Source: Thermoanaerobaculales bacterium (GTDB lineage Bacteria > Acidobacteriota > Thermoanaerobaculia > Thermoanaerobaculales > Sulfomarinibacteraceae). From it: a stretch of DNA of 64,000 nt. Location of the stretch: the NCBI GenBank assembly GCA_025456145.1, contig JALOLD010000003.1, positions 18,209-82,208 of the forward strand. Direction: 5' to 3'. Under the pieces are notes generated by a model. That model saw only the letters and a list, made by a program, of their open reading frames with translations. It made no database searches and was not told the origin of the DNA. The translations under genes and the position numbers were made by a program. Positions 40,811-54,572 of this stretch are shown one piece after another (position 1 is the first letter of the stretch; every line of letters begins with the position of its first letter).

Positions 40811-40999
40811 CGCATCCTCCTGGTCGGGCTCGTCCGGGTGTTGTCCTGCGGTCGCTGTCAGCGTCGAGGGATACTGTAGCAGGGGCCAGCGGCATCGGGG
40901 CGAGTTGCCGGAGGCGACGGGTCGACCGAGGATTGGGCGACGGGTGGCGAGGTTTTGAAAAATCGAGCCTTTGTCTCAATTCATCGTCCGGGGCTGAGC

Positions 41000-41028
41000 T
41001 TGAGAAGTCGGCTATTTGCCGATAGAGT
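41000..41028 (+). promoter_or_regulatory. Candidate sigma70-type promoter of the 23-heme cytochrome gene
   Basis: TTGAGA (41000-41005), a 17-nt spacer, then TAGAGT (41023-41028). The predicted TSS near 41035 leaves an 18-nt leader containing GGGAGAGAG before GTG 41053. Confidence 0.4.
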
Positions 41029-41052
41029 TATGTCGTGAGAGGGAGAGAGCCG

Positions 41053-44000
41053 GTGAGACCTCGCCGTTTTCGTTTCATCCCGCACGAGCGGCAGTGGGCC
41101 CTTACGACCGCGCTGGCGCTCGCCATCATCATCCCCGGGCTCGGCCTCGGGCAGACCATCGAGGACTGCCTGACCTGCCACGAGGACCCGGAGCTGGTCG
41201 GCGAGATCGGCGGCGTCGAGGTGTCGATGCACGTCGACCCCGCCGGCTTCCGATCGTCGGTGCACGGCGAGTTCGGCTGCGTGGACTGCCACGCCGACCT
41301 CGACGGCGCCGAGCTTCCGCACGACGAGGAGCTCGAGCCGGTCGACTGCGGGACCTGTCACGACGACATGGCCGCCGATCTGGCGGCCGGGCCGCACGGG
41401 AAGTGGGCGGGAGACCCGACCTCGCCATCGGCAGCCTGCGTCGGGTGTCACGGAGCCCACGACGTGCTGTCGAGCAAGACGCCGGGCGCCCCGACCGGCC
41501 CGGCGCGGGTCGATGACCTCTGCGCCCGCTGCCACGGCGTTGTGCTCAAGGCGGTGTCGGCAAGCCCCCACGGACGGATGGTCGGCGACCGCCCGGCCGC
41601 GACCTGCGCCGACTGCCACCTCGGGCACGCGGTGATCGCCCCGACCGAGCCGCTCCTCCAGCTCGACGCCTGCGGAACCTGCCACGTCGAGCAGGCCGCG
41701 GAGAATCGCGGCTCGCTGCACGGTCGGGCGGCGGTCAAGGGCGACCCGGCGGCGCCGAACTGCATCATCTGCCACGATCACCACGCGATCCGCCCGAGCA
41801 GCGACCCGGCGGCGCCGACCGCGATCCAGAACATCCCGCTGCTGTGCGGCCGCTGTCACCGCGAGGGGACCGAGGTCTCGCTCCAGCACGACATCCCGCA
41901 GGACCGGATCCTCGAGAACTTCTCGATGTCGGTGCACGGCGACGCGCTCTTCCACAAGGGCCTCACGGTGACCGCGGTGTGCACCTCGTGCCACACCGCC
42001 CACAACATCCTCGACCACAACAACCCGGCCTCGAGCATCAGCCGAGGCAACGTGGCCAGGACCTGCATGAAGTGCCACGGCAGGATCGAGGAGGTCCACG
42101 TCAAGGTCGTCGAGGGCCGGCTCTGGGAGGAGGAGCCCCACAAGATCCCGTCATGCGTCGAGTGCCACCAACCCCACAAGATCCGGCGACGCGCGGTGAC
42201 CGCTCAGGAGGCGTCGAGCCAGAGCTGTCTGGCCTGCCATGGCGACCCGACGTTGAGCGTCGAGCGCGACGGCGAGAAGGTCTCGCTGTTCGTCGACCCC
42301 GATCGCTTCGCCCTGGGCTCGCACGCCCAGACCGCCTGTGCCCAGTGTCACACCGATGTCACCCCGGGGCACAAGGAGCGGCCCTGCGCCACGATCGCCT
42401 CGCCGGTCGACTGCGGCATCTGTCACGCCGCCCGGGTCGAGGAGCACGACCTGAGCCGCCACGGCGCGCTCGCGGCCGAGGGCGACCCCGATGCGCCGAC
42501 CTGCGTCACCTGCCACGACCACCCGCACACCGTCCTCGACCACCGGCTGCCGATGGCGCCGACCTACTCGCGCAACGTCCCCAATCTCTGCGGCGAGTGC
42601 CACGCTGCCGGGGGAGCCGCGGCCCTCCGCCTCGCCGACGACCGGGACATCGTCGGCAGCTATCTCGAGAGCGCCCACGGAAGGGGGCTGATGGGCAGCG
42701 GCCTGGTGGTGTCGGCGAGCTGTATCGACTGCCACACCGCGCACTCGGCGCTGCCCCAGGACGACCCCCGCTCGACCGTCAGCCGCGGCCGGATCCTCGA
42801 CACCTGCGGCGCCTGCCACAAGGGCATCGAGGAGGAGTTCAAACGAAGCGTCCACTTCCCGGCCAACGTGGTGACCAACCAGGAGCTGCCGACCTGCGAG
42901 AGCTGCCACACCTCGCACGAGATCACCCGGATCGACGCCCAGGGCTTCCGGATGATGATGATGAACCAGTGCGGGCGCTGCCACGAGGGCTTCGCCGAGA
43001 CCTTCTTCGACACCTACCACGGCAAGGTGACCCAGCTCGGCTCGGAGGGCGCCGCCAAGTGCTACGACTGCCACGGCACCCACAACATCCTGCCGTCGGA
43101 CAACCCCGACTCGAGGCTCAGCCGGAGGCACGTGGTCGAGACCTGCGGTCAGTGTCATCCGCGGGCCCACCTCGAGTTCGCGGGCTACCTCAGCCACGCG
43201 ACCCACCACGACAAGGACAAGTACCCCTTCCTGTTCTACTCCTACTGGTTCATGACCATCCTGCTCGTCGGGACCTTGACCTTCTTCCTCGTCCACACCC
43301 TGCTGTGGCTGTTCCGGCTGTGGCGGACCCGGGACGTCTGGCGACCGCTCAAGGAGAACGGCGAGGTCGAGCGGCGCTACTACATCCGCTTCACCTCGAA
43401 GCAGCGGATCATGCACTTCGTCATGCTGCTCTGCTTCTTCGCCCTCGCGCTGTCGGGGATGGCGCTGAAGTTCTCGTTCATGGGCTGGGCCCACGCCGTG
43501 TCCCGGATCCTCGGCGGCTACGAGAGCATGGGCACGCTCCACCGCTGGGCGGCGGTAGTGCTGATCGGGCTCTTCGTCTACCACCTGCGCGACGTGTTCA
43601 GGGCCAAGGCCGCGTCCGGCAAGGGCTGGTTCGCCTACATCTTCGGCCCCAACTCGCTGATGTTCAACCTCACCGACCTGACCCAGTTCTGGCAGAGCAC
43701 CAAGTGGTTCCTCGGCCGCGGCCCGCGGCCCCACTACGGCCGCTTCACCTACTGGGAGAAGTTCGACTACTTCGCGGTCTTCTGGGGCGTGTTCGTGATC
43801 GGCTCGACCGGGCTGGTGCTGTGGTTCCCCGAGCTCTTCACCCGTCTCCTGCCCGGCTGGTCGGTCAACGTGGCGACCATCATCCACTCGGACGAGGCGT
43901 TGCTCGCCGTCGGCTTCATCTTCACCATCCACTTCTTCAACACCCACTTCCGGCCCGACAAGTTCCCGATGGACCCGGTGATCTTCACCGGCCGGGTGCC

Positions 44001-44205
44001 CCTCGACGAGCTCCGGCACGACAAGCCGGGCGAGTACGAGGAGTTCGTCGAGGGCGCCGACGAGGCCGTCCTGGCCCAACGGGTCAAGGGTCCGGCCAAG
44101 CGGCGCATCGAGAAGGCGGCGCGGATCGTCGGCTTCACCGCCCTGGCGATCGGCCTGACGTTGATCTTCCTGATCGTCTACACGATGGTCTTCGGCTACC
44201 GGTAG
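41053..44205 (+). CDS. Fusion protein: 23-heme c-type cytochrome (periplasmic) plus a C-terminal FdnI/HydC-type di-heme b cytochrome membrane domain
   Basis: I counted 23 CxxCH motifs by eye, followed in the same frame by about 6 TM helices with conserved His (RIMHF, TLHRW, VYHL, IIHSDE, FTIHFF). The start is GTG 41053 (SD-supported) or GTG 41035 (ORF-track start). Confidence 0.88.
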   Translation: MRPRRFRFIPHERQWALTTALALAIIIPGLGLGQTIEDCLTCHEDPELVGEIGGVEVSMHVDPAGFRSSVHGEFGCVDCHADLDGAELPHDEELEPVDCGTCHDDMAADLAAGPHGKWAGDPTSPSAACVGCHGAHDVLSSKTPGAPTGPARVDDLCARCHGVVLKAVSASPHGRMVGDRPAATCADCHLGHAVIAPTEPLLQLDACGTCHVEQAAENRGSLHGRAAVKGDPAAPNCIICHDHHAIRPSSDPAAPTAIQNIPLLCGRCHREGTEVSLQHDIPQDRILENFSMSVHGDALFHKGLTVTAVCTSCHTAHNILDHNNPASSISRGNVARTCMKCHGRIEEVHVKVVEGRLWEEEPHKIPSCVECHQPHKIRRRAVTAQEASSQSCLACHGDPTLSVERDGEKVSLFVDPDRFALGSHAQTACAQCHTDVTPGHKERPCATIASPVDCGICHAARVEEHDLSRHGALAAEGDPDAPTCVTCHDHPHTVLDHRLPMAPTYSRNVPNLCGECHAAGGAAALRLADDRDIVGSYLESAHGRGLMGSGLVVSASCIDCHTAHSALPQDDPRSTVSRGRILDTCGACHKGIEEEFKRSVHFPANVVTNQELPTCESCHTSHEITRIDAQGFRMMMMNQCGRCHEGFAETFFDTYHGKVTQLGSEGAAKCYDCHGTHNILPSDNPDSRLSRRHVVETCGQCHPRAHLEFAGYLSHATHHDKDKYPFLFYSYWFMTILLVGTLTFFLVHTLLWLFRLWRTRDVWRPLKENGEVERRYYIRFTSKQRIMHFVMLLCFFALALSGMALKFSFMGWAHAVSRILGGYESMGTLHRWAAVVLIGLFVYHLRDVFRAKAASGKGWFAYIFGPNSLMFNLTDLTQFWQSTKWFLGRGPRPHYGRFTYWEKFDYFAVFWGVFVIGSTGLVLWFPELFTRLLPGWSVNVATIIHSDEALLAVGFIFTIHFFNTHFRPDKFPMDPVIFTGRVPLDELRHDKPGEYEEFVEGADEAVLAQRVKGPAKRRIEKAARIVGFTALAIGLTLIFLIVYTMVFGYR

Positions 44206-44259: not shown

Positions 44260-45135
44260 TCACCCGATCGGGGTCACCGCTCGGTTGTAGACCCAGGTCA
44301 GGGCGACCGCGAAGACCGCGGCGGTGACGCCGAGACCGGCGTCGATGAACCGCGGGGCGGTCAGGGCGAGGCGGATGAGCACCGTCGCCACCGCGAAGCC
44401 GAAGTACCTGAAGACGACCGGGTAGGCGACGGTGGTGCGCAGCGAGATGAGCACGATGAGGACATCGGCGAAGATCAGCAGCGTGTAGAGGATCTCGAAG
44501 AAGTCGTGGGCCGGCGGCCGGGTCCCGGCGCCCGCCGCCGCTGCGGTCCAGCTCCAGACGACGACCGCTCCGGTGATCGCGAGCGAGGCCAGGAGGACCA
44601 GCGCGATGAGCTTCTTGGCGGCGATGAAGCTCGAGCGCTCTCCGTCGTTTCGGCCGATCGGGAGATGCCGCTGCTGCCTGACGAAGACCAGCAGCAGCGC
44701 GAAGATCGCGAGCGCTCCGAAGGCGTCGGAGAGGATGTAGAGCATCTGGTCGCGCACCCCGTGCGACCACTCGATGGGCTCGGGAAAGCTCGAGAGCTCC
44801 TTGAAGGACTGGCGGATGAGGATCAGCGACATGATCTCGAGCTGCTTGCCGACCGCGGTCGACACCGACTGGGCGAGGGCGAGGACGAGCGACACCACTT
44901 CGGCGACGAGCAACAGCGTAAACGCCCAGATGATGGCGTCGAAGTGCTTGACCGGAAAATGAGGGGCAAAGGCCGGGGGGAGCCAGCCGCGCCGGTTGAG
45001 CTCGATGACGAGGATCCCGATCAGGAAGACGAGGGTCAGGAAGGTCGCGATCCGTCGCTGGGTGGCGAGGGTCTCCCATCTCGACTCGACGCGGTCGAAG
45101 AGCTGCGATGAATGGGCGAGGATCGATCGGCCCAC
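44260..45135 (-). CDS. Hypothetical integral membrane protein (about 7 TM helices), tightly coupled to the upstream giant gene
   Basis: From ORF 44260..45306, with the start moved to GTG 45133-45135. This start is 1 nt after the upstream stop (45137-45139) and is preceded by GGAGGAG. The rejected N-terminal 57 codons are Ser/Arg/Pro-rich. TM helices include IATFLTLVFLIGILVIEL and FFEILYTLLIFADVLIVLISL. Confidence 0.7.
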   Translation of the reverse strand: MGRSILAHSSQLFDRVESRWETLATQRRIATFLTLVFLIGILVIELNRRGWLPPAFAPHFPVKHFDAIIWAFTLLLVAEVVSLVLALAQSVSTAVGKQLEIMSLILIRQSFKELSSFPEPIEWSHGVRDQMLYILSDAFGALAIFALLLVFVRQQRHLPIGRNDGERSSFIAAKKLIALVLLASLAITGAVVVWSWTAAAAGAGTRPPAHDFFEILYTLLIFADVLIVLISLRTTVAYPVVFRYFGFAVATVLIRLALTAPRFIDAGLGVTAAVFAVALTWVYNRAVTPIG

Positions 45136-45136
45136 G

Positions 45137-48100
45137 TCACTCCTCCGCCGCGGTCTGGAGCGGCCGCACCAGACCGGCGTACCGCCGCTCGACCGAGAAG
45201 CCGTGGCGGTAGAAGAACTGCGGTCGGAAGAAGCCGGTGGTGAGCCAGCGGAAGCTCTCGGCGCGCAGCCGGTTGGCGAGCTCGTCGAGCAGGCTGCCGG
45301 CGACACCGAGCCCGCGGGCGCCCTCGCTGACCACGATCTTGTCCATGTGGGCGGTGGCGGAGGCCTCGTCGACCTCGTAGAAAAGTCCGCCGAGCAGGTG
45401 TCCGCGGTCCGACACCGCGACCAAGAACCGGTGCTCGGGCCGGAACTGGACCGGGAGCTTGGCGGCGAGGAAGAGCCGGTGGAGGCGGGCGATCTCCTTC
45501 GGGCTGAGGGCGTGGCGGATCCGGTAGGGGCGTCCCTCGGAGTCGAGGCAGGTGACGACCATTTCGCTCTGGCGGACCCCGCTGGCCAGCGAGGCGACGT
45601 ACTCCGCGTCGTCCTCGGGGCGGAGGTGGGGGTAGGAGAGCCGGGCGAGGAAGAAGTCGAGCTCGGGCTCGAGGTCGAGGCGCGCCCGCAGGTCGGCGAC
45701 CGCGGCGCTCAGGTCGTCGGGGTCGATTGCGCCCGACCGGAGACCGGCGATGATCCGCTCGAGGCCCTCGGCGAGCGCCTCCGGCGCCTGGCGCAGGACG
45801 GTCTCGCGGAAGAAGCGCGCACGGCTCTCGGGATAGACCTCCCTGAGCTCGTCGAGGCGGTAGGTCTCGTAGAGCTCGAGCAAGGTCCTGGCGCGGACGG
45901 TGTGGGTGGCCTCGGGCGCGAGCCGGTCCCACTTCCGGAAGCGTTTGGCGGCGAAGTAGAGCCGGCGGGGGAGAAAGCCGCGGCGCTCGACGACCTCGAG
46001 GTAGCGCTCGAGCTCGCCGGTCCAGCCGCGCCCCGCGGCGCGGGCCTCGGCGAGCAGCCCGCCGAGCAGCGCGACGCCGTCGGCCTCGCCGACGATCTCG
46101 AGCACCGAGGAGAAGATCACCTCGCGCCCGACCACGCCCTCGAGGCGCGGGTTGAGCTGGGCGACCGGCGCCAGGAGGTCGGTCTCGAAGCTCTCCACCA
46201 GGTCGAGCAACGAGGTGAAGGGCTTGCGGGCGGCGATCGAGACGAGGCGGGCGCCGGTGTGGTAGTCGTGGGTCGGGACGATGACGTTGCCCGGCGTCGG
46301 CCGCTCGACCACCAGCCGTCGCCCGGTCCGGTCCCAGAAGTCGACATACGCCGACATCGCGCTCCACGCGGCGAACGGCCAGAGCGCCTCGAGACGCTCC
46401 CGGTCGAGCTCGCGGCGCGACAGCCGGGCGATCGCGCGGTCGAGGGTCTCGCCCGGGATGAACTCCTCGGTCCACAGTCCGTGCTCGGGCCAGCTGCCGC
46501 CGAAGTCCTCGACCAGCGGGCCGCGGTCGCGCTCCTCGGCGCAGACGACGAGCCAGTCGATCTCCTCGCGAACCTGATGGTCGTCGAGCTCGCGGTTGAG
46601 GTTGACCGCCAGGTCGAACTGGCCCTGGGCGCGGGTCTTGACCGCCATCCGGTAGACCGACTTGCCGTGGTCGGTGCCGAGGTGGCGGACCCACACCCCG
46701 TCGGGCAGGATGTCGTCGAGGCGGACCGTGGCGCCGCGCGAGAACAGGAAGATGCCCTCCTGGACCATGGTCGTGCTCTTGATCGCGGCGAGCAACCGGT
46801 GGCGCGCCTCCTCGTCGACGTCCTCGGCGAACTCGACGACGTCGTCCCAGCGGTACTCGAGCCCGGTCTCGGGGTCGACGGCGATCCGGGCCGGGCGGCC
46901 GAGCCAGCTCCGGAAGCCCTCCTCGAGCCGCGCCGCGGCCGCGCGAGCCGCCGCGCCGGCGTCGGCCGAGGAGGCGGTCACCGCGTGGCGGGTGAGGAAG
47001 CCGCGCAGCTGACGGAAGCGGGTCGGGTGGGCGGCGCCGTAGTCGGCGAGAAAGTCGAGAAGGGCCCGCGCCACGCCGGCCGCGGGATCGCCCTCGCCGG
47101 TCCGGAACCGCCGCCCGGTCTCGTCGACCAGCGCGCGGACCGTGTCGGGCGACAGCTCGTGCTCGTTGAGCGCCGCGGCGGTGGGCCGGTCGAGGAGATC
47201 GGGCACGGCGTCGAGAAAGGCGGCGAGGGTGCGGCGGAAGGTGGTCGGTCGCTCGGCGATGGCGAGGACGCGGAAGGCGCGACGGGCAACCGCCGGCCGC
47301 GAGTCGGTGGCCGAGCGGCGGAGCAGGCTCAGGGCGGTGTCGGTGAGCTCGCCGCCGCCACACTCGATGGCGTTGTCGAGAATCTCGACGGCGAGCTCGC
47401 CGGTCTCGTCGTCGGCCGCGTTGAGCAGGTGGGCGGCGAGGTGGAGGTCGTCGAGGCCCGGCTCGACCCGGGTCGCGGCCTCGGCCGCGGCGCGGCGTTG
47501 GTCCTCGCCGGCCTCGACCACGGTCGCCGAGCCGAGGCGCTCGAGATCCGCGTCCCGCCGGCGGCGGCGGTTGCGGTGCTCCGCCGAGAGCGGCGCGAAC
47601 TCGACGAGCTCGGCATTACCGAGCCAGAGCAAGGGGGTCGAGAGGAGCTGGCCGAGGTCGACCGCGGCGGAGGTCGCGAGGGTGTAGACCGCCCCCCCGA
47701 TCCGGACCTCGTCGTCCTCTCCGCGACGGATGGTCAGCGGTCTGCCGACGCTCCCCAGGCTCAGCCGGTCGCCCTCGACCGCGATCTCCTGGGTGGTGAT
47801 GCCGAGGGCCTGGAAGAGCCAGTTCGGGATGAGGATCTTGGTGCCGCCGACGCTCAGGGTGGTCCGGCGATAGAGCAGGGCGATCGTCTCGGAGAAGCTC
47901 CGCTCGATCGCCTTGCGGCGGTAGGTACCCTTGGGCGTCAGCTCGCCGCGGTCGGCGGAGAAGTCCCGGTCGATCACCGCGAAGTCGACGATCCGCTCGA
48001 AGGGGGCGAGGAAGGCGTTGGCGCTGACCACCAGCGAGCGGAAATGGGCCTTGCGTTCGGCGGCGTCGAGGGCGCCGAGATCGACCTCGCGGAAGGCGAA

Positions 48101-49888
48101 GTTGGGGTAGATGAGCGCGGTGTTGTAGGGCCGGTGGTCGCCGACCAGGAAGATCCGCCCGACCGACTCGAAGTCGCGGAACAGATTCTCGACCTTCTGC
48201 GGCGCGATGGTCTGGCCCTGGATGTTCTTGTAGATCTCCTTCTTGCGGTCGACCATGTGGAGCTCGCCGAAACGGTCGCGTTCCATGAGGTCGCCGGTGT
48301 GGAACCATCCCTGCGGGTCGAAAGACGGAGCGCCGTCGGGGTCGTCGAGATAGCCCATCATCACGTAGGGGCCGCGGATCACCAGCTCGCCGTCGGCCGC
48401 GAGCTCGGCCTCGATCCCGGGGAGCGGCCGGCCGAGGGAGTCGTCGACATAGGCGCCGGGGACGGTCATGGTGATCCCGCCGGTCGCCTCGGTCATCCCG
48501 AAGCCGCTCATCAGCTCGACGCCGTGGCGCTGGAAGAAGCGGAAGAGTTCGGGGGCGAGGTAGCCGGCGGCCGACAGGCCCCAGCGCAGCTCGCCGCCGG
48601 TGAGGAGCTCGACCGTCGCCGTGATCTCCGGGTCGGAGGCGGCCTCGACGTCGACCTCCTGACCGATCCGCTCGGCGAGCTGCATCCACTTCATCGGGAT
48701 GCTGATGAACACGGTCGGCCTGACCTCACCCATCTCGCGGACCAGCGAGTCGATCGACGGGCTCTCGGCGAAGTGGTAGGTGGCGCCCCAGAAGACGCAG
48801 CCGCACATCTCGAGGAAGCGGCCGAAGGTGTGGTAGAGCGGCAGATAGGCCAGGAAACGGTCGCCGTCGCCGATCGCGGGCAGCGCGAGGGCGCGGGCGA
48901 AGCGCTTGAAGACGATGTTGCGCTGCGAGAAGCGGATGCCCTTCGGTCGGCCGGTGGTGCCCGAGGTGTACATGATCGTCGCGAGGTCGTCGACGGCGAC
49001 CGAGCTGCGGCGCTCGCCGACCGTTTCGGACGAGACCTCGGCGGCCCTTTCGAGCAGCTGGTCGAAGGCGAGGACGTCGCGGGAGGCGGCCGCCGGGTCG
49101 AGCACGACGACGTGCTCGAGCCGGGCGAGGCGCTCACGGTTGGCGACGATCTTCCTGAGCTGCACCTCGTCCGACGCGACCACGAAGGTGGCGCCGCAGT
49201 GCTCGAGGATGTAGCCGACCTCGGCCTCGGTCGCGGTCGCCGGGATCATCACGTCGACGATGCCCGAGGTCAGACAGGCGAGATCGGTCAGGGCCATCTC
49301 GAGACGGTTGTCCGAGAGGATCGCGACCCGCCGGTCGGCGCCGCCGCCGTCGAGCGCGAGCAGGCTCCGGGCGATCAGCCCGACCCGTCCGGCAGCCTGG
49401 ATCCAGCTCACGGTGCCGCCGCCTCTGGGCAGGCCGAACAGCGGGCGCGAGCCATAGCCGGCGACCCGCTGCTCGAAGAGCGGGCCGAAGGTGAGGTTCG
49501 AGGCGTCGACCAGCCGGCGGATCAGGTCGGCCCACCGCGGCACCGCCTCGGCGCCGGCGATTCGGCCGAGCAACGCCGGCCGACGGACGACGTCGAGGTA
49601 GGACCAGGCCGCCCACCGGAGCTCGTCGTCGGGGGCCGGCGGGCCGGGACGCTGGCGGGCGACGAGGCGCTCGCCGAGGGCGAGCAGGGCGTCGAGATCG
49701 AGACGGTCGACGACCTGCTCGCCGGCGCTCCGGTTCTCGAGGAGCTGAATCGCCCGGGCGTCGGCGGCGGCCGTGTCGGGGCCGTCGGGGACGGCGAGCA
49801 GGCCCTCGACCTCCCGGACGGCATCCGTCGAGGCGACCTCGAGGAGGTCGTCGAAGGGGTCGGCGGCGCCGCTCTCGGGGTTCGTCAT
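45137..49888 (-). CDS. 1,583-aa multidomain enzyme: AMP-dependent synthetase/ligase (fatty-acyl-AMP/CoA-ligase-like), a large unassigned central region, and a C-terminal GNAT acyltransferase domain
   Basis: From ORF 45137..51061, with the start moved to ATG 49886-49888 (MTNPESGAADPFDD). The upstream 391 codons are antisense to the alpha/beta hydrolase gene and are Arg/Pro/Gly-rich. ANL motifs are MYTSGTTGRPKG, GFGMTEATG, WFHTGD and GELTPKGTYRRK. The GNAT core is VAVSDRGHLLGGLFYEV ... IVVSEGARGLGVAGSLLDELANRL. Confidence 0.85.
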   Translation of the reverse strand: MTNPESGAADPFDDLLEVASTDAVREVEGLLAVPDGPDTAAADARAIQLLENRSAGEQVVDRLDLDALLALGERLVARQRPGPPAPDDELRWAAWSYLDVVRRPALLGRIAGAEAVPRWADLIRRLVDASNLTFGPLFEQRVAGYGSRPLFGLPRGGGTVSWIQAAGRVGLIARSLLALDGGGADRRVAILSDNRLEMALTDLACLTSGIVDVMIPATATEAEVGYILEHCGATFVVASDEVQLRKIVANRERLARLEHVVVLDPAAASRDVLAFDQLLERAAEVSSETVGERRSSVAVDDLATIMYTSGTTGRPKGIRFSQRNIVFKRFARALALPAIGDGDRFLAYLPLYHTFGRFLEMCGCVFWGATYHFAESPSIDSLVREMGEVRPTVFISIPMKWMQLAERIGQEVDVEAASDPEITATVELLTGGELRWGLSAAGYLAPELFRFFQRHGVELMSGFGMTEATGGITMTVPGAYVDDSLGRPLPGIEAELAADGELVIRGPYVMMGYLDDPDGAPSFDPQGWFHTGDLMERDRFGELHMVDRKKEIYKNIQGQTIAPQKVENLFRDFESVGRIFLVGDHRPYNTALIYPNFAFREVDLGALDAAERKAHFRSLVVSANAFLAPFERIVDFAVIDRDFSADRGELTPKGTYRRKAIERSFSETIALLYRRTTLSVGGTKILIPNWLFQALGITTQEIAVEGDRLSLGSVGRPLTIRRGEDDEVRIGGAVYTLATSAAVDLGQLLSTPLLWLGNAELVEFAPLSAEHRNRRRRRDADLERLGSATVVEAGEDQRRAAAEAATRVEPGLDDLHLAAHLLNAADDETGELAVEILDNAIECGGGELTDTALSLLRRSATDSRPAVARRAFRVLAIAERPTTFRRTLAAFLDAVPDLLDRPTAAALNEHELSPDTVRALVDETGRRFRTGEGDPAAGVARALLDFLADYGAAHPTRFRQLRGFLTRHAVTASSADAGAAARAAAARLEEGFRSWLGRPARIAVDPETGLEYRWDDVVEFAEDVDEEARHRLLAAIKSTTMVQEGIFLFSRGATVRLDDILPDGVWVRHLGTDHGKSVYRMAVKTRAQGQFDLAVNLNRELDDHQVREEIDWLVVCAEERDRGPLVEDFGGSWPEHGLWTEEFIPGETLDRAIARLSRRELDRERLEALWPFAAWSAMSAYVDFWDRTGRRLVVERPTPGNVIVPTHDYHTGARLVSIAARKPFTSLLDLVESFETDLLAPVAQLNPRLEGVVGREVIFSSVLEIVGEADGVALLGGLLAEARAAGRGWTGELERYLEVVERRGFLPRRLYFAAKRFRKWDRLAPEATHTVRARTLLELYETYRLDELREVYPESRARFFRETVLRQAPEALAEGLERIIAGLRSGAIDPDDLSAAVADLRARLDLEPELDFFLARLSYPHLRPEDDAEYVASLASGVRQSEMVVTCLDSEGRPYRIRHALSPKEIARLHRLFLAAKLPVQFRPEHRFLVAVSDRGHLLGGLFYEVDEASATAHMDKIVVSEGARGLGVAGSLLDELANRLRAESFRWLTTGFFRPQFFYRHGFSVERRYAGLVRPLQTAAEE

Positions 49889-49993
49889 CGGCTCAACTCT
49901 ACTCGATTCGCGATCGCCCGCGCGCTCGACCCGACGGGAGAACCTGCCGCGCGGAGGGTTGCACGATCTCTGGGGTCGGTGTTCACTCGGCGT

Positions 49994-50887
49994 ATGAGCT
50001 TCCGGCTCGAGCGGCCGCAGCGGTCGTGGTGGCGTCGCGCGCTCGTCACCGCCGTCGTGCTCTGGGGTACGATCCTCGTCACGATGGTGCTCTTCGAGCG
50101 GTCGCTGATCTTCTTCCCGGACCGCTACCCGATCGGGAGCTGGGATGCCGGAGCGGTCGCGCGCGGCGCCGGGGTGACGATCGAGGACCGGACCTTCGCG
50201 GCCTCCGACGGGGTCACCCTCCACGCCTGGTGGTGCCGGCCGGAGATGGCCGCGGGTCCGACCTCCGACATGGTCGTGCTGTGGTTCCACGGCAACGCCG
50301 GCAACCTCGCCCAGCGGGCCGACGGGATGATCGCCCTGGCCCGGCTGCCCGCCCAGGTCCTGATCGTCGACTACCGGGGCTACGGGCGCAGCGCCGGCCG
50401 GCCGAGCGAGGAGGGGCTCTATCTCGACGGCCGGGCGGCCTGGCGCCATCTCACCGAGGACGCAGGCGTCGACCCGGGCCGTATCGTCCTGCTCGGCGTC
50501 AGCCTGGGCGGCGCGGTGGCGGTCGATCTGGCGACCGAGGTCGAGCCGGCCGGGCTGGTCCTCCAGTCGGCGTTCACCTCGGTGCCCGACATGGCCGCCC
50601 ACCACTACCCGTTCATCCCGAGCTGGCTGGTCAGGACGAGGATGGACTCGCTCGCCAAGATCGGCCGGGTTCGCTGCCCGATCCTGATCATCCACTCGTC
50701 GGACGACGAGGTCGTGCCCTTCGAGCACGGGCGGCGGCTGCACGAGGCAGCGGGCCCGGGCGCCCTTTTCGTCGCGGTCGAGGGGGCCGGGCACAACGAG
50801 ACCCGCGCGGTCGGCGGGCCGGTCGTCGACGACGCGCTGCGCCGGTTCCTGGTCGACTGCCGCGATCGCGGCGCGGGCGGGACGTGA
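49994..50887 (+). CDS. Alpha/beta hydrolase (BEM46/ABHD13-like), N-terminal TM anchor
   Basis: Only the last 297 codons of ORF 44996..50887 are credible. Motifs are WFHGNAGN, the nucleophile elbow GVSLGG, IIHSSDDEVVP and GAGHNE. Confidence 0.85.
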   Translation: MSFRLERPQRSWWRRALVTAVVLWGTILVTMVLFERSLIFFPDRYPIGSWDAGAVARGAGVTIEDRTFAASDGVTLHAWWCRPEMAAGPTSDMVVLWFHGNAGNLAQRADGMIALARLPAQVLIVDYRGYGRSAGRPSEEGLYLDGRAAWRHLTEDAGVDPGRIVLLGVSLGGAVAVDLATEVEPAGLVLQSAFTSVPDMAAHHYPFIPSWLVRTRMDSLAKIGRVRCPILIIHSSDDEVVPFEHGRRLHEAAGPGALFVAVEGAGHNETRAVGGPVVDDALRRFLVDCRDRGAGGT

Positions 50888-50951
50888 GCGGGTCGCCGAT
50901 CGCGTGGCTCCGGTCACCGGCCGCGGTGCGGGGACCGGTACAATGTTGGTC

Positions 50952-51359
50952 ATGAGATCCCTCACAGACACACAGGCGCGGTTCTTCGAAACAGTCGCCG
51001 AAACCGTGACGCCGGAGGTGGCCTCGCTCGACGCCGCCCGGCGAGCCCGGCTGCTCGCCATCGTCGACGACGCGCTGCTCGACCGGCAGCCGTCGGTGAG
51101 GAGGCAGCTCGGGACCTTCCTGTCGGTGATCCGGCTCGCCCCCCTGGTCCGCTACGGGAGGTCCTTCGACCGGCTCGACGGGGCCCGGAGGACCGCCGTC
51201 CTGCGCTGGTTCGAGAGCTGTCCGGTGGCGCTCCTGCGGAAGGGCTTCTGGGGTTTGAAGGCGCTGGTCTTCATGGGCTACTACGGCCAGCCCGAGCACT
51301 GGGCCGAGATCGGCTATGCGCCCGACTTCGACGGTCGGCCGGGGGTGCGACGTGCATGA
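50952..51359 (+). CDS. Small hypothetical protein, probable accessory subunit of the downstream GMC oxidoreductase
   Basis: The 135-aa ORF (MRSLTDTQARFFETVAETV...) overlaps the start of the GMC gene. It resembles the small subunits that precede membrane/periplasmic GMC dehydrogenases, but that assignment is not verified. Confidence 0.6.
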   Translation: MRSLTDTQARFFETVAETVTPEVASLDAARRARLLAIVDDALLDRQPSVRRQLGTFLSVIRLAPLVRYGRSFDRLDGARRTAVLRWFESCPVALLRKGFWGLKALVFMGYYGQPEHWAEIGYAPDFDGRPGVRRA

Positions 51360-52854
51360 GCACTCGTACGACATCGTGATCATCGGCTCGGGGGCGGGCG
51401 GCGGCGCGGTCGCCAAGGAGCTCGCGCCTCTCGCCGCCGCGGGCCGGCGGATCGCCGTCCTGGAGTGGGGCGCCAAGCTCGCCGACGACGCCTACACCGG
51501 CCGCGAGGTCGAGATGGCGCGCCAGCTCTACTTCGACTCCGGCGGCGTGCTGACCAAGGACCGGACGCTGACCATGGCCTACGGCCGCGCCTACGGGGGC
51601 TCGACCGTGGTCTACACCGGCACCTCGCTGACCATCCCCGAGGAGGTCGTCCGGCGCTGGGACGTGCCCGGGATCGAGGCCGAGGACCTCGCTCGCCGGT
51701 CGGCGAAGTACCTCGCCGAGAACAACGTCCACCTGCTCGACGAGGAGGAGCTCAACGACAACAACCGGCTGTTCCGCGACGGCTGCGCGGCGCTCGGCTA
51801 CCGGGTGCAGCAGTTCCCGATCAACGTCAAAGGCTGCCGCTCGTCGAGCCTGTGCAACCTCGGCTGCCCGAACAGCGCCAAGCAGGGAACCCACCGGGTC
51901 CAGCTCCCGGCGGCCGAGGCGGCCGGGGTCGAGGTGATCACCAACTGCCGGGTGACCCGGGTGGGGGAGGGAAGCTGCGAGGCGGTGGTCGCCGACCCCG
52001 GCTTCGGTCTGCCGACGACCTGGGAGGCCGGCGAGCACCGGGTCCGCGCCAAGGTCGTGGTCGTCTGCGGCGGCGCGGTCAACTCGTCGGCGCTGCTGCT
52101 GCGCTCGGGCTTCGGCTCGGCGCTGCCGAACCTCGGGCGCTATCTGACCCTCCACCCGGCGCTGATCCTGGTCGGCGAGCACCCGCATCCGATCTCGAAC
52201 TTCCACGGCCACCCCAAGAGCTTCTACTGCGACCACTTCTGGGAGTCCGAACGGTTCCTCCTCGAGACCTGCATGTACTTCCCCTTCACCACCTCGAAGA
52301 ACCTCATCGGCTTCGGCGCCGAGCACTCGGAGCTGATGCGGGCCTTCCCCAGGCTGCAGATGATCCTGGTGCTGGCGATCGACCCGGCGCTGCCCGCCAA
52401 CCGGGTCGTGCTCGACCGCGACGGCGAGCCGGTGGTCGACTACACGATGGGCCCCGAGGTCCTCGACTCGCTCCACCGGAGCATGGTCGCGAGCGCCCGG
52501 ATCTTCTTCGCCGCCGGGGCGGCGCGGGTCCACGCTCCGGCCGGCGCGACCTTCTTCATCGACCGTCGCGACGCCGATCGGGTCGAGGAGCTAATCCCGC
52601 GCTCGCGCGTCGTCCCCGGGAAGATCTCGGTGGCGAGCGCGCACCTCATGGGGGGGTGCCGGATGGGACGGAGCGCCGCCGACTCGGTGACCGACGGCTG
52701 GGGGCGGGTCCACGGCGCACGGGGCCTCTACGTCGCCGACTCGGCGCTCTTCCCCCGGGCCTCGGAGATCAACCCCTACGTGACGGTGATGGCGCTTGCC
52801 GACCGGGCCGCCGAGCACATTCGGACCAACGCCGGGGAGCTGCTGGCGTCATGA
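51352..52854 (+). CDS. GMC-family FAD oxidoreductase
   Basis: YDIVIIGSGAGGGAVAKELA is the FAD motif. The C-terminal region is AHLMGGCRMG ... GLYVADSALFPRASEINPYVTVMALA. The start is GTG 51352 (8-nt overlap with the upstream stop) or ATG 51316. Confidence 0.85.
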   Translation: MHEHSYDIVIIGSGAGGGAVAKELAPLAAAGRRIAVLEWGAKLADDAYTGREVEMARQLYFDSGGVLTKDRTLTMAYGRAYGGSTVVYTGTSLTIPEEVVRRWDVPGIEAEDLARRSAKYLAENNVHLLDEEELNDNNRLFRDGCAALGYRVQQFPINVKGCRSSSLCNLGCPNSAKQGTHRVQLPAAEAAGVEVITNCRVTRVGEGSCEAVVADPGFGLPTTWEAGEHRVRAKVVVVCGGAVNSSALLLRSGFGSALPNLGRYLTLHPALILVGEHPHPISNFHGHPKSFYCDHFWESERFLLETCMYFPFTTSKNLIGFGAEHSELMRAFPRLQMILVLAIDPALPANRVVLDRDGEPVVDYTMGPEVLDSLHRSMVASARIFFAAGAARVHAPAGATFFIDRRDADRVEELIPRSRVVPGKISVASAHLMGGCRMGRSAADSVTDGWGRVHGARGLYVADSALFPRASEINPYVTVMALADRAAEHIRTNAGELLAS

Positions 52855-54572
52855 AGCTCCGCGGCTCCCGGCTGGTCGTCCGCGCCCTGGTCGACGAAGG
52901 GGTGCGCTTCACCTTCGGCATCCCGGGCACCCACAACATCGAGCTCTATGACGCCCTCGAGGAGGCGCCCGGGATCGAGGCGGTGCTCGTCACCTCGGAG
53001 GTGGCCGGGGCCTTCATGGGCGACGGCGTGTCGCGGACCTCGGATCAGATCGGGGTGCTCAACGTGGTGCCCGGCGCCGGGGTGACCCACAGCCTGTCGG
53101 GGATCGCCGAGGCCTTCATGGACCAGGTGCCGCTGGTGGTCCTCGCCTGCGGCATCCGGCGCGACACCGGGACGGCCTTCCAGCTCCACGACATCGATCA
53201 GCTCGCGGTGCTGCGACCGGTGACCAAGGCCGCGTTCGCCATCGCGGAAGCGGCGGAGATCTACCCGACGATCCGGCGCGCCTTCGAGATCGCCCGGACC
53301 CCGCCGGCCGGCCCGGTCGCGGTCGAGATCCCGGCCAACCTCATGATGCTGACCCAGGAGGTCGACGAGCCGCGCTGGGCGGCGTCCCCTCCGCCCGAGC
53401 GGCTGCTCGACCGCGAGCTCGTCGAGCGGGCGGCCCGGATGCTCGGGGAGGCCCACCATCCGGCGATCTACGCGGGCGTGGGGGCGGTCGCCGGCCGGCA
53501 CCAGCTCATCCAGCTCGCCGAGCAGCTCGGCGCGCCGGTCATGACGACCTTCCAGGGCAAGGGGGTGTTCCCCGAGTCGCACCCGCTGTGGCTGTGGACC
53601 GGCATCGGCCGGTCGGCGCCGCCTTTCGTCCGCGCCGTCGTCGACCGCTGCGACTGCCTGCTCGCGGTCGGCTGCCGATTCGGCGAGGTCGCGACCGGTT
53701 CCTATGGCCTGGCCCCGCCGCGCCGGCTGATCCACGTCGACATCGACCCCGAGGTTCCCGGCCGGAACTTCCCCACCGAGCTCGCGGTGACCGCGGATGC
53801 GGCGACCTTCCTCGGCGCCCTGGGAGCGCTCATCGAGGGCCGGCGCCCGGCCGACGAGCTGGTCCGCGAGATCGCCGACGGGCACGAGCGGGTCCGCCGA
53901 AGCTGGCGCGGCGCCTCGTCGCCGAGCCGGGTGACGCCGGAACGCTTCTTCGCCGTGCTCCAGCGCCACTGCGGCGACGACACGGTGTACGCCACCGACA
54001 GCGGCAACGGAACCTTCCTCGCCGCCGAGCACCTCCGGCTCGACCACCCGCGCTGCTTCATCGGACCGGTCGACTTCTCGTGCATGGGCTACTCGGTGCC
54101 GGCGTCGATCGGCGCCGCCTTCGCCAACCCGCACCGCGACGTCGTCACCCTGGCCGGCGACGGCGCCTTTTTGATGACCGGGCTCGAAGCGCTGACCGCC
54201 GCGACCTATGGGGCGGCGCCGCTGATCTGCGTGCTGCGCGACGGCAAGCACGGGCTGATCGCCGAGTTCCAGAAGGTCCCGCTCAACCGCCAGACCTGCA
54301 GCGTCCTCCCCGACTACAGCGTGCAGGCCGTCGCCGAGGCGGTCGGCTGCCGCTACTTCCGGATCCTCCGCGACTCGGAGCTCGAGGCGGTCATCCCGGC
54401 CGCTCTCGAGCTGGTTCGCGCGAGGACCCCGGCGATCGTCGAGGTCGCGATCGACTACTCGAACCGGACCTTCTTCAGCCGCGGCGTGGTGGCGACCAAC
54501 TTCTGGCGCTTCCCGTGGCGCGAGCGGCTGCGGATGCTCGGGCGGGCGCTGCTGCGGAGGATGGGTGGCTGA
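52851..54572 (+). CDS. Thiamine-diphosphate-dependent enzyme (acetolactate synthase / benzoylformate decarboxylase-like)
   Basis: The N-terminal region is LVDEGVRFTFGIPGTHNIELYDAL. The TPP-binding motif is LAGDGAFLMTGLEALTA. The ATGA overlap links it to the GMC stop codon. Confidence 0.85.
   Translation: MKLRGSRLVVRALVDEGVRFTFGIPGTHNIELYDALEEAPGIEAVLVTSEVAGAFMGDGVSRTSDQIGVLNVVPGAGVTHSLSGIAEAFMDQVPLVVLACGIRRDTGTAFQLHDIDQLAVLRPVTKAAFAIAEAAEIYPTIRRAFEIARTPPAGPVAVEIPANLMMLTQEVDEPRWAASPPPERLLDRELVERAARMLGEAHHPAIYAGVGAVAGRHQLIQLAEQLGAPVMTTFQGKGVFPESHPLWLWTGIGRSAPPFVRAVVDRCDCLLAVGCRFGEVATGSYGLAPPRRLIHVDIDPEVPGRNFPTELAVTADAATFLGALGALIEGRRPADELVREIADGHERVRRSWRGASSPSRVTPERFFAVLQRHCGDDTVYATDSGNGTFLAAEHLRLDHPRCFIGPVDFSCMGYSVPASIGAAFANPHRDVVTLAGDGAFLMTGLEALTAATYGAAPLICVLRDGKHGLIAEFQKVPLNRQTCSVLPDYSVQAVAEAVGCRYFRILRDSELEAVIPAALELVRARTPAIVEVAIDYSNRTFFSRGVVATNFWRFPWRERLRMLGRALLRRMGG

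What the first reader, a model, noticed from the sequence alone, without database searches (positions are those of the whole stretch)
44260..50887. Giant acyl-AMP-ligase / unknown / GNAT fusion tightly coupled to a 7-TM protein, divergent from a membrane-anchored lipase-like hydrolase
Seen: 45137..49888 encodes 1,583 aa. It has a complete ANL adenylation domain (MYTSGTTGRPKG, GFGMTEATG, WFHTGD, GELTPKGTYRRK) in the first ~700 aa and a GNAT core in the last ~150 aa (GARGLGVAGSLLDEL). About 700 aa in between I cannot assign. One stretch in that region (EEFIPGETLD ... ERPTPGNVIVP...ARLVSI) is faintly protein-kinase-fold-like but lacks the catalytic His/Asp. The stop codon TGA (45137-45139) is 1 nt from the GTG start of a 291-aa 7-TM protein, whose SD (GGAGGAG) lies inside the giant gene. 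An N-terminally anchored BEM46-type alpha/beta hydrolase is transcribed divergently 105 bp upstream. Known: ANL enzymes activate carboxylates as acyl-AMP. GNAT folds include N-acyl amino acid synthases, OlsB-type lipid N-acyltransferases and Pat-type protein acetyltransferases. Pat fuses an NDP-forming, not AMP-forming, synthetase-like domain to GNAT. Aas fuses an acyl-ACP synthetase to an acyltransferase. Inference: this is a self-contained activate-and-transfer machine, making either an N-acyl amino acid or aminolipid that is handed to the coupled membrane protein, or an acyl-AMP-sensing protein acylase. I know of no characterised protein with this architecture.
Basis: partly seen in the sequence, partly recalled or inferred. 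Interest (0 to 1): 0.7.

Follow-up and report, generated by a model that had tools for sequence, protein, structure and literature searches.

The report
Acyl-CoA synthetase fused to GCN5-like acyltransferase
A real, widely conserved but unstudied 1,583-residue bacterial protein joins a fatty-acid-activating enzyme to a histone-acetyltransferase-like domain through a dead kinase-like scaffold, probably forming a self-contained acyl-CoA-making and protein-acylating control unit; the membrane protein next to it is only a local add-on.

Summary
The gene at 45137-49888 (-) encodes a 1,583-aa protein. It has an intact ACSL/FadD-type AMP-forming ligase (residues 138-675) and a C-terminal GNAT (about 1428-1583). 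The 291-aa 7-TM gene starts 1 nt after its stop, and an anchored alpha/beta hydrolase lies 105 bp upstream, divergent.

It is not an assembly artefact. Hundreds of full-length homologues of about 1,500-1,640 aa occur in Acidobacteriota, Gemmatimonadota, Eisenbacteria, Calditrichota, KSB1, Ignavibacteria and Marinimicrobia.

An AlphaFold model (pLDDT 86.8) resolves the unassigned middle. It holds a small conserved beta domain, a HEAT-like solenoid and a protein-kinase-like fold that lacks conserved catalytic residues. There is no carrier domain. The GNAT profile matches GCN5 histone acetyltransferase best (E 6e-13).

The 7-TM gene and the hydrolase accompany the giant gene only in a Thermoanaerobaculia subclade. 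The most widespread neighbour is citrate synthase, in 35 of 84 loci across several phyla.

Best reading (moderate confidence): this is an acyl-CoA synthetase fused to its own Pat-like protein acyltransferase. It gives feedback control at the acyl-/acetyl-CoA node, rather than making an aminolipid for export. No member has been characterised. It is a new variant of known kinds.

The parts
45137..49888 (-). Giant gene, 1,583 aa plus TGA stop (45137-45139); soluble, with no convincing TM segment
   Evidence: identical protein P0001 and more than 100 full-length homologues
49478..49888 (-). N-terminal extension, residues 1-137; poorly conserved and unassigned
47864..49477 (-). ANL adenylation / acyl-CoA ligase domain, residues 138-675 (AMP-binding + AMP-binding_C_3; ACSL/FadD11/CAR-A-like)
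   Evidence: T308, K316, E467, D533, R548 and K653 are conserved in 57-58 of 58 representatives
47594..47827 (-). Small beta-rich domain directly after the ligase, residues about 688-765. It is the most conserved part outside the ANL (P688, G731, Y735, N758 invariant). It is not a carrier domain
46901..47506 (-). Helical (HEAT/ARM-like) solenoid, residues about 795-996; variable in sequence
   Evidence: AF2 model; weak HEAT_2/ARM hits in 3 of 31 members; VPS34 helical+kinase match
45632..46885 (-). Protein-kinase-like fold with helical C-lobe extension, residues about 1002-1419; catalytically degenerate (pseudokinase-like)
   Evidence: Foldseek probability 1.0 to EGFR, EphA3 and PRPK kinase domains, and VPS34 at E 1e-4. 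No beta3 Lys; HRD-Asp position is D in 18/58 and R in the query; Ser at the DFG-Asp position in 51/58. No kinase Pfam hit in 31 members
45140..45607 (-). GNAT acyltransferase domain, residues about 1428-1583; GCN5-like core
   Evidence: R/Q1525 in 45/58, G1528 in 52/58, S/G/A1530 in 56/58, D/E1516 in 53/58
44260..45135 (-). 291-aa polytopic membrane protein (7 hydrophobic segments). GTG start lies 1 nt after the giant gene's stop. Orphan family restricted to Acidobacteriota
49889..49993 (.). 105-bp divergent intergenic region; no sigma-70-like promoter match and no Rfam match
49994..50887 (+). 297-aa N-terminally anchored alpha/beta hydrolase. It is the first gene of a co-directional run (Gluconate_2-dh3-like, GMC oxidoreductase, TPP enzyme, Ser/Thr kinase-TPR)

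Best explanation
What is shown. The ORF is a genuine, soluble multidomain enzyme. Its order is: N-terminal extension, a catalytically intact AMP-forming medium/long-chain-type acyl-CoA ligase, a conserved beta domain, a HEAT-like solenoid, a degenerate protein-kinase-like domain, and a GCN5-like GNAT with an intact CoA-binding motif. It has no carrier domain. It belongs to a family with this fixed architecture in at least seven bacterial phylum-level lineages.

What is inferred. It works as an acyl-CoA synthetase fused to its own Pat-like protein acyltransferase. The ligase converts a carboxylate (probably a fatty acid) plus ATP and CoA into acyl-CoA. The GNAT uses an acyl-CoA to N-acylate a protein lysine. 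That acyl-CoA could be the ligase's own product, or acetyl-CoA as a read-out of the downstream pool. The most likely target is the ligase's own catalytic A10 lysine (K653), in cis or between protomers. This would shut the ligase off when acyl-/acetyl-CoA accumulates.

The roughly 750-aa solenoid plus pseudokinase would play the part of the large regulatory domain of type I acetyltransferases: scaffold, oligomerisation, or nucleotide/metabolite sensing.

The 7-TM protein (translationally coupled in this clade) and the hydrolase are lineage-specific neighbours. They are not part of the core mechanism.
For: 1. Both catalytic ends are under selection. ANL residues T308, K316, E467, D533, R548 and K653 are conserved in 57-58 of 58 representatives. 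GNAT motif A (R/Q-x-x-G-x-S/G/A) and an acidic residue on beta4 are conserved in 45-56 of 58.
2. No carrier domain or conserved Ser follows the ligase. Any hand-over must therefore go through free acyl-CoA, which is the GNAT donor.
3. The GNAT profile matches Tetrahymena GCN5 far better than anything else in the PDB (E 6e-13, 52 bits; next best 1e-6). KAT2A and PCAF also match. This suggests a protein-lysine type of GNAT.
4. AMP-forming acyl-CoA synthetases are the canonical substrates of bacterial GNAT lysine acetyltransferases. AcuA forms a stable inhibitory complex with AcsA (PMC11255334). Type I/II KATs have about 700-900 aa of regulatory domain plus about 200 aa of GNAT (PMC8556138). The C-terminal roughly 900 aa here has the same size and order.
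5. There is no conserved acceptor-supplying or lipid gene nearby, and the gene is often monocistronic.
6. The most widespread neighbour is housekeeping citrate (Si)-synthase: 35 of 84 loci, in at least four different arrangements across Gemmatimonadota, Acidobacteriota, Eisenbacteria, Ignavibacteria and KSB1/Cytophagia. This ties the family to the acetyl-CoA node.
Against: No experiment exists, and the acyl acceptor was not identified by any test here. The A10 region (TPKGTxxRK) does not match the PX4GK context that I recall for Pat substrates (own knowledge, not tested here). A regulatory appendage of about 900 aa is large for simple feedback. The putative general-acid Tyr of the GNAT (Y1560) is kept in only 23 of 58 representatives. 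Similarity to GCN5 covers only the core and does not prove a protein substrate. Citrate synthase is not near the gene in the window or in its 7-TM-bearing clade.
Confidence: 0.35

Rival explanations
1. Tandem catalysis on a separate protein target. The ligase supplies acyl-CoA locally, and the GNAT acylates another protein. The solenoid and pseudokinase act as the substrate-recruiting platform, much as large helical auxiliary subunits present substrates to GNATs in N-terminal acetyltransferase complexes. Citrate synthase or other central-metabolic enzymes are candidate targets.
For: The GNAT core is GCN5-like. HEAT-like solenoid and pseudokinase folds are typical protein-interaction scaffolds. 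Citrate synthase adjacency occurs in 35 of 84 loci across phyla. Both catalytic ends are conserved.
Against: No target is identified. Adjacency to citrate synthase may reflect co-regulation rather than enzyme-substrate pairing. The window's own clade lacks that adjacency.
Confidence: 0.25
2. It is an activate-and-transfer enzyme that N-acylates a small amine to make an N-acyl amino acid or aminolipid. In this clade the product would be passed to the coupled 7-TM protein. The unfused analogue is the ACSM ligase plus GLYAT (a GNAT) glycine-conjugation pair (own knowledge).
For: An intact ligase and an intact GNAT sit on one chain. In the Thermoanaerobaculia subclade the 7-TM gene is translationally coupled: a 1-nt gap here and 4-bp overlaps in L003 and L004. 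It co-occurs on at least 14 further contigs, judged from shared contig lengths. Unrelated esterase or alpha/beta-hydrolase genes sit next to the gene here and in 8 Ignavibacteria loci.
Against: The 7-TM gene is absent from 75 of 82 non-redundant loci and from every phylum other than Acidobacteriota. It has no recognisable fold or family. No OlsB/NAS-type family hit appears in 31 members. No conserved lipid-synthesis neighbours are found. About 750 aa of solenoid and pseudokinase is unexplained by a small-molecule conjugase.
Confidence: 0.15
3. It is essentially a long acyl-CoA synthetase. The pseudokinase and GNAT are non-catalytic ligand-binding or scaffold modules, for example sensing acyl-CoA or nucleotides, or serving localisation or oligomerisation. 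This would parallel the catalytically dead synthetase-like domain of Pat.
For: Conservation is strongest in the ANL and the adjacent beta domain, and weaker in the kinase-like and GNAT parts. Kinase catalytic residues are not conserved. The GNAT Tyr is kept in only 23 of 58.
Against: GNAT motif A and the beta4 acidic residue are well conserved. All 31 diverse members still score as GNATs.
Confidence: 0.12
4. Artefact: the long ORF results from a mis-assembly, or from a frameshift that joins separate genes.
For: None beyond its unusual length.
Against: An identical protein is found on 7 contigs from independent sources. More than 100 homologues of 1,570-1,609 aa carry the same domains. At least 551 species-level genomes encode relatives, and the 80 best all match the query along most or all of its length, apart from a few cut by contig ends.
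Confidence: 0.01

Closest known systems
Type I/II bacterial protein acetyltransferases (Salmonella Pat / E. coli PatZ; Streptomyces PatA)
   Same: They are large multidomain proteins in which about 700-900 aa of regulatory, synthetase-related sequence is joined to a GNAT of about 200 aa. They control AMP-forming acyl-CoA synthetases by lysine acylation (PMC8556138).
   Different: In Pat the big domain is an NDP-forming, catalytically dead synthetase homologue. Here the synthetase is AMP-forming, with all catalytic motifs intact. The spacer is a solenoid plus pseudokinase. No NDP-forming-type Pfam domains are present.
Bacillus AcsA-AcuA complex (AMP-forming acetyl-CoA synthetase plus GNAT)
   Same: A GNAT is physically bound to an AMP-forming synthetase. 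It inhibits the synthetase and acetylates its catalytic lysine (PMC11255334). The giant protein could be a covalent version of such a pair.
   Different: AcsA and AcuA are separate small proteins. Their ligase is acetate-specific, whereas this one is ACSL/FadD-like. No pseudokinase or solenoid is involved.
GCN5/PCAF histone acetyltransferase catalytic core
   Same: This is the best sequence-profile match of the GNAT domain (tGCN5 E 6e-13; KAT2A/PCAF about 2e-5). Motif A is shared.
   Different: His1514 aligns with the GCN5 catalytic Glu, and an Asp/Glu two residues on (D1516) is the conserved acidic residue. There are no flanking substrate-binding segments or bromodomain. The context is bacterial.
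Long-chain acyl-CoA synthetases (ACSL / FadD11 / FadD5) and the A domain of carboxylic acid reductase
   Same: These are the best matches for residues 138-675: NCBIfam FadD11 E 1.7e-63, CAR 5mso E 6e-25 over 144-674, FadD5 E 1e-24. The AMP-binding_C_3 C-terminal subdomain is shared.
   Different: The match is far below every equivalog cut-off (215 vs 950 bits for FadD11). No carrier or reductase domain follows, unlike CAR. About 900 extra residues are present.
Class III PI3-kinase VPS34 (helical domain + kinase domain) and minimal or pseudo-kinases (PRPK, JAK1 JH2)
   Same: This is the top Foldseek match for the central region. The helical solenoid is followed by a kinase fold in the same order (E 1e-4). 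Kinase domains match with probability 1.0 and TM(target) 0.4-0.56.
   Different: TM-scores over the whole model are low (about 0.2). Sequence identity is 10-15%. The catalytic Lys, Asp and DFG are not conserved. No kinase Pfam family is detected.
Ebony-type and related ANL-carrier-GNAT amide synthases; AAC(6')-APH(2'') (GNAT + kinase-like fusion); mammalian ACSM + GLYAT glycine conjugation (all from own knowledge)
   Same: Each combines two of the three folds seen here, to activate a carboxylate and/or N-acylate an amine.
   Different: Ebony needs a phosphopantetheinyl carrier, which is absent here. AAC-APH has an active kinase and no ligase. ACSM and GLYAT are unfused, and neither has a scaffold.

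Membership tests
ANL superfamily, AMP-forming acyl-CoA ligase | Core motifs A3 (T/S-G-T-T-G-x-P-K-G), A5 (G-x-T-E), A7 (T-G-D), A8 (D-R-x-K) and the A10 lysine | tested here: met
   All are present in the query. T308, K316, E467, D533, R548 and K653 are conserved in 57-58 of 58 representatives. Pfam AMP-binding E 1.5e-65.
ANL superfamily, AMP-forming acyl-CoA ligase | Membership of a named equivalog (FadD11, FadD3, FadD5, MenE, CAR, Aas...) | tested here: not met
   Every NCBIfam hit is far below its curated cut-off, e.g. FadD11 215 vs 950 bits and Aas-type PRK06814 94 vs 1349.
GNAT superfamily | Pfam GNAT model above its gathering score, and CoA-pyrophosphate motif A (Q/R-x-x-G-x-G/A) | tested here: met
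   Acetyltransf_1 scores 29.3 bits against a cut-off of 20.7. All 31 diverse members hit GNAT models. R/Q1525 in 45/58, G1528 in 52/58, S/G/A1530 in 56/58.
GNAT superfamily | Identifiable general base or acid for catalysis | tested here: inconclusive
   His1514 aligns to the GCN5 catalytic Glu. D/E1516 on the same strand is conserved in 53/58. Tyr1560 is kept in only 23/58.
Pat/PatZ-type (type I/II) protein lysine acetyltransferases | Regulatory domain homologous to NDP-forming acyl-CoA synthetase | tested here: not met
   Only AMP-binding, AMP-binding_C_3 and GNAT models are detected in 31 members. No NDP-forming-type domains are found.
Pat/PatZ-type (type I/II) protein lysine acetylransferases | Acylates a protein lysine, classically the A10 lysine of an AMP-forming synthetase | not testable with these tools
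   This needs biochemistry. The only indirect support is the GCN5-like GNAT profile and the literature precedent.
Protein-kinase-like superfamily | Bilobal kinase fold | tested here: met
   AF2 model with pLDDT 86.8 and pTM 0.79. Foldseek probability 1.0 to many kinase domains.
Protein-kinase-like superfamily | Catalytic residues: beta3 Lys, HRD Asp, catalytic-loop Asn, DFG Asp | tested here: not met
   No beta3 Lys. The HRD position is D in 18/58 and R1196 in the query. Asn1201 is present in 45/58. Ser stands at the DFG-Asp position in 51/58. No kinase Pfam family is hit.
N-acyl amino acid synthase / OlsB-type aminolipid N-acyltransferases | Match to the corresponding acyltransferase families, and association with lipid or second-acyltransferase genes | tested here: not met
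   Only general GNAT models are hit in 31 members at E<=1. No conserved lipid-gene neighbours are found in 82 loci.
NRPS-like ANL-carrier-transferase enzymes (Ebony, CAR) | Phosphopantetheinyl carrier domain with a conserved Ser after the A domain | tested here: not met
   The region after residue 675 is modelled as a beta domain followed by a solenoid. No conserved Ser lies in 676-1000. No PP-binding Pfam hit is found.
Two-gene unit 'giant gene + 7-TM gene' | The 7-TM gene is conserved next to homologues | tested here: not met
   It is present directly downstream in only 7 of 82 non-redundant loci, all Acidobacteriota. The 7-TM family is restricted to Acidobacteriota. Within that subclade the pairing is conserved.

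The most novel reading that the evidence does not exclude
The family is a new class of self-contained metabolic controller. A fatty-acid/carboxylate-CoA ligase generates the acyl donor, and its built-in GCN5-like acyltransferase then writes it onto itself or onto enzymes at the entry to the TCA cycle, such as the frequently adjacent citrate synthase. A pseudokinase domain would act as the nucleotide or metabolite sensor. This would be a bacterial 'writer with its own acyl-CoA supply', operating in many uncultured phyla.
Probability: 0.3. Interest if true: 0.75.

Novelty: new variant of a known kind. Interest (0 to 1): 0.6.

Why it matters
Reversible lysine acylation of AMP-forming acyl-CoA synthetases is a central control point of carbon metabolism. 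So far it has been described as separate writer and target proteins.

A natural fusion of an active synthetase with a GCN5-like writer would give three things. First, an independent argument that synthetase and GNAT work as one unit. Second, a new regulatory-domain type for bacterial acetyltransferases (solenoid plus pseudokinase). Third, a one-protein system for studying how acyl-CoA production is coupled to protein acylation.

The fusion is conserved at about 1,550 aa across at least seven mostly uncultured lineages and is often placed beside citrate synthase.

The work also assigns a fold to a roughly 750-aa region that no Pfam or NCBIfam model covers. Current annotations call these proteins either 'AMP-binding protein' or 'GNAT family N-acetyltransferase', and so miss the architecture.

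Tried and rejected
- Assembly join: rejected, given hundreds of independent full-length homologues.
- 7-TM protein as obligate partner: rejected family-wide. Its AF2 model (pLDDT 75.7) has no significant PDB neighbour, with best E 0.53. It has no Pfam, NCBIfam, PHROG, PADLOC or PDB-sequence match.
- Hydrolase as partner: weak. A homologue lies near the giant gene in only 3 loci, and in the window it heads another gene run.
- Defence-system or phage origin: no PADLOC or PHROG hits.
- Riboswitch or leader in the divergent region: no Rfam match, and no promoter or terminator consensus of note.
- Methylcitrate-cycle (PrpE/PrpC/AcnD-like) reading of the citrate-synthase/aconitase neighbours: rejected. 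The synthase is citrate (Si)-synthase PRK09569 (738 bits, above cut-off), not PrpC. The aconitase-family gene is homoaconitase and occurs in only 2 loci.
- Stand-alone versions of the central+GNAT part: the shorter hits that I checked (two clusters) are fragments of clusters that also hold about 1,500-aa members.
- Sequence-level kinase assignment: none in 31 members.
- Literature: no paper on an AMP-forming synthetase-GNAT fusion.

Full report
**Observation**

The window is about 70% G+C. On the minus strand a mechanical ORF runs 45137..51061. The real gene starts at the ATG at 49888 (MTNPESG...) and encodes 1,583 aa.

- the 1,583-aa gene;
- a 291-aa gene starting one base after its stop;
- a 297-aa alpha/beta hydrolase, divergent and 105 bp upstream.

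The junction reads GGAGGAG-TGA-C-GTG. The + strand ORF 44996..50887 is a shadow frame of the GC-rich gene that runs into the true hydrolase frame.

Pfam places AMP-binding at 138-514 (E 1.5e-65), AMP-binding_C_3 at 556-675 and GNAT at 1481-1565, with nothing between. NCBIfam's best hits are FadD11 and other long-chain ligases, all far below their cut-offs.

A Kyte-Doolittle scan gives seven hydrophobic segments in the 291-aa protein and one N-terminal anchor in the hydrolase. It gives only one borderline hydrophobic segment (1257-1275) in the giant protein, inside the helical region, so I take that protein to be soluble.

**Is it real?**

Yes. An identical protein is on record from NCBI and JGI. 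More than 100 homologues at 54-89% identity are 1,570-1,609 aa long with the same Pfam set.

I searched 1.84 billion representatives with only the unassigned middle (residues 690-1470). This found 333 clusters. The full-length ones are 1,473-1,710 aa, with the middle in the same position, down to about 20% identity. The two short-hit clusters I checked also contain members of about 1,500 aa, so those short hits are fragments.

Named sources and a scan of one genome per species place the family in Acidobacteriota (Thermoanaerobaculia, Holophagae, Vicinamibacterales, Polarisedimenticolaceae), Gemmatimonadota, Eisenbacteria, Calditrichota, KSB1, Ignavibacteria/Melioribacteraceae, Cytophagia-labelled MAGs and Marinimicrobia. 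At least 551 genomes carry it. Nearly all are MAGs. One assembly, labelled Caldithrix abyssi, is not flagged as a MAG.

**Anatomy**

*Ligase.* In 58 non-redundant representatives the ligase catalytic residues are essentially invariant: T308, K316, E467, D533, R548 and the A10 lysine K653. The ligase is closest to carboxylic-acid-reductase A domains, FadD5 and other fatty-acid ligases among solved structures. By my own reading, its A5 region (GFGMTEATGG) resembles ACSL-type enzymes and has Gly where acetate-specific Acs has Trp. That points to larger substrates.

*Central region.* An AlphaFold2 model of residues 690-1470 is confident (pLDDT 86.8, pTM 0.79). In order it contains:
- a small beta domain;
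- a helical solenoid;
- a bilobal kinase-like fold with a helical extension;
- the first GNAT strands.

Foldseek against the PDB returns VPS34 (helical plus kinase domains, E 1e-4). It also returns many protein-kinase domains with probability 1.0, among them EGFR, EphA3, PRPK and the JAK1 pseudokinase.

No member hits a kinase Pfam family. The canonical catalytic set is not conserved:
- there is no beta3 lysine;
- the HRD-Asp position is Asp in 18 of 58 and Arg in this protein;
- Ser occupies the DFG-Asp position in 51 of 58.

Other residues are conserved: R1080, N1201, D1208 and G1212.

*Beta domain and carrier question.* The beta domain just after the ligase carries the only invariant residues outside the ANL apart from three isolated positions (W1320, T1363, G1501). 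These are P688, G731, Y735 and N758. No carrier domain or conserved serine follows the ligase.

*GNAT.* The GNAT keeps motif A (R/Q1525, G1528, S/G/A1530) and an acidic residue on beta4 (D/E1516). A profile of 28 family GNAT domains hits Tetrahymena GCN5 at E 6e-13. That is six orders of magnitude ahead of the next structures, and KAT2A and PCAF also match.

**Neighbourhood**

I compared 82 non-redundant loci.

*7-TM gene.* A homologue lies directly downstream in seven loci only, all Thermoanaerobaculia, Holophagae or Sulfomarinibacteraceae. In two of them it overlaps the giant gene by 4 bp. Elsewhere the next gene is a response regulator, homoaconitase, CTP synthase, an esterase, a TetR regulator or a convergent gene.

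The 7-TM family has 457 detectable members. All are 'hypothetical', without Pfam domains, and nearly all those with a name are labelled Acidobacteriota (one is labelled Methylomirabilota). Many lie on contigs whose lengths match those of giant-gene contigs. Its model finds no structural neighbour.

*Hydrolase.* A homologue is near the giant gene in three loci. In the window it is the first of five tightly spaced co-directional genes: Gluconate_2-dh3-like, GMC oxidoreductase, TPP enzyme and Ser/Thr kinase-TPR follow it. So it probably belongs to that run.

*Citrate synthase.* Clustering all flanking ORFs shows one neighbour shared widely: citrate (Si)-synthase (Pfam E 1e-99; NCBIfam PRK09569 738 bits against a cut-off of 344). 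It lies beside the giant gene in 35 of 84 loci, usually within 12-700 bp. The arrangements differ by lineage:
- upstream on the same strand in Ignavibacteria and Eisenbacteria;
- downstream on either strand in Gemmatimonadota;
- downstream and convergent in Polarisedimenticolaceae, KSB1 and Cytophagia.

It is absent from the window.

**Mechanism**

Shown: an intact AMP-forming ligase and an intact-looking acyl-CoA-dependent GNAT sit on one soluble chain. They are separated by a solenoid and pseudokinase scaffold. There is no carrier and no family-wide partner gene.

Inferred: acyl-CoA is the only plausible link between the two ends, being the product of one and the donor of the other. Three lines of evidence bear on how the ends are connected:
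- AMP-forming synthetases are the classical targets of bacterial GNAT acetyltransferases, and AcuA forms a stable inhibitory complex with AcsA (PMC11255334).
- Type I acetyltransferases are about 700 aa of regulatory domain plus a GNAT (PMC8556138), and the C-terminal roughly 900 aa here has the same order and size.
- The GNAT is GCN5-like.

I therefore favour a synthetase fused to its own Pat-like writer, giving feedback at the acyl-/acetyl-CoA node. The citrate-synthase linkage is consistent with this. My confidence is about 0.35.

**Comparison and novelty**

The protein is a member of the ANL and GNAT superfamilies. At fold level only, it also belongs to the kinase-like superfamily. It fails the defining tests for Pat-type enzymes (no NDP-forming domain), Ebony/CAR-type enzymes (no carrier), OlsB/NAS enzymes and any named ligase equivalog.

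I found no paper on this architecture. I rate it a new variant of known kinds, with interest of about 0.6.

**Limits**

Noticed in passing
Loci L012, L014, L019-L027, L030, L031, L034, L035, L037, L038, L041, L049-L051, L053, L056, L062, L063, L066, L067, L069-L073, L077, L079, L083: Housekeeping citrate (Si)-synthase sits next to the giant-gene homologue in 35 of 84 loci. It appears in several different arrangements across at least five phylum-level lineages. It is not present in the 64-kb window.
   Followed up: yes
window 49994-57921 (+): The hydrolase heads a run of five co-directional genes with short gaps or overlaps: alpha/beta hydrolase, Gluconate_2-dh3-like (50943-51359), GMC oxidoreductase (51316-52854), TPP-dependent enzyme (52851-54572) and a 1,118-aa Ser/Thr kinase with TPR repeats (54565-57921).
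   Followed up: partly
window 39347-44205: A 1,050-aa multihaem cytochrome with a cytochrome-b-like part (41053-44205, +) converges on the 7-TM gene. Beyond it lies an NNT/NrfH-type cytochrome (39347-40810, -). This pair is syntenic with the giant gene in 11 acidobacterial loci. A small CoA_binding_2 protein (38920-39333, +) follows.
   Followed up: partly
window 44996-50887 (+): A 1,963-aa antisense 'ORF' covers the whole giant gene and merges in frame with the real hydrolase gene. It is a GC-rich shadow frame that a naive ORF caller could mistake for a gene.
   Followed up: yes
L008 (about 5077 onward) and L012 10759-12741: A fused homoaconitase (TIGR00139, 797 bits) starts 2-43 nt after the giant gene's stop in two acidobacterial MAGs. 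In L012 citrate synthase follows it.
   Followed up: partly
L085 5122-5712 and L086 12772-13383: In Calditrichota a convergent TetR-family regulator abuts or overlaps the 3' end of the giant gene. TetR regulators often sense acyl-CoAs (own knowledge).
   Followed up: no
L004 6302-7630: In one Holophagae MAG, malonyl-CoA decarboxylase (which forms acetyl-CoA) lies between the hydrolase homologue and the giant gene.
   Followed up: no
L052, L056, L061, L066, L074, L078, L082, L083 (downstream of the giant gene): Eight Ignavibacteria loci carry a PF00756 'putative esterase' 67-114 nt after the giant gene, followed by a PAP2-family membrane phosphatase. This is a second, unrelated hydrolase association, in a different phylum from the window.
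   Followed up: partly
window 46300-46302 (codon for residue R1196): This protein has Glu-Arg (E1195-R1196) where most close relatives have Ala-Asp at the kinase HRD-Asp position. The position is Asp in only 18 of 58 family representatives.
   Followed up: yes
L087/L088 (Marinimicrobia): The homologue looks monocistronic. It lies between a divergent GAF-HD protein with a CitMHS/SLC13-type transporter on one side and a cytochrome c oxidase cluster on the other. The same 1,519-aa protein is seen on more than 200 contigs, so it is abundant in marine metagenomes.
   Followed up: no
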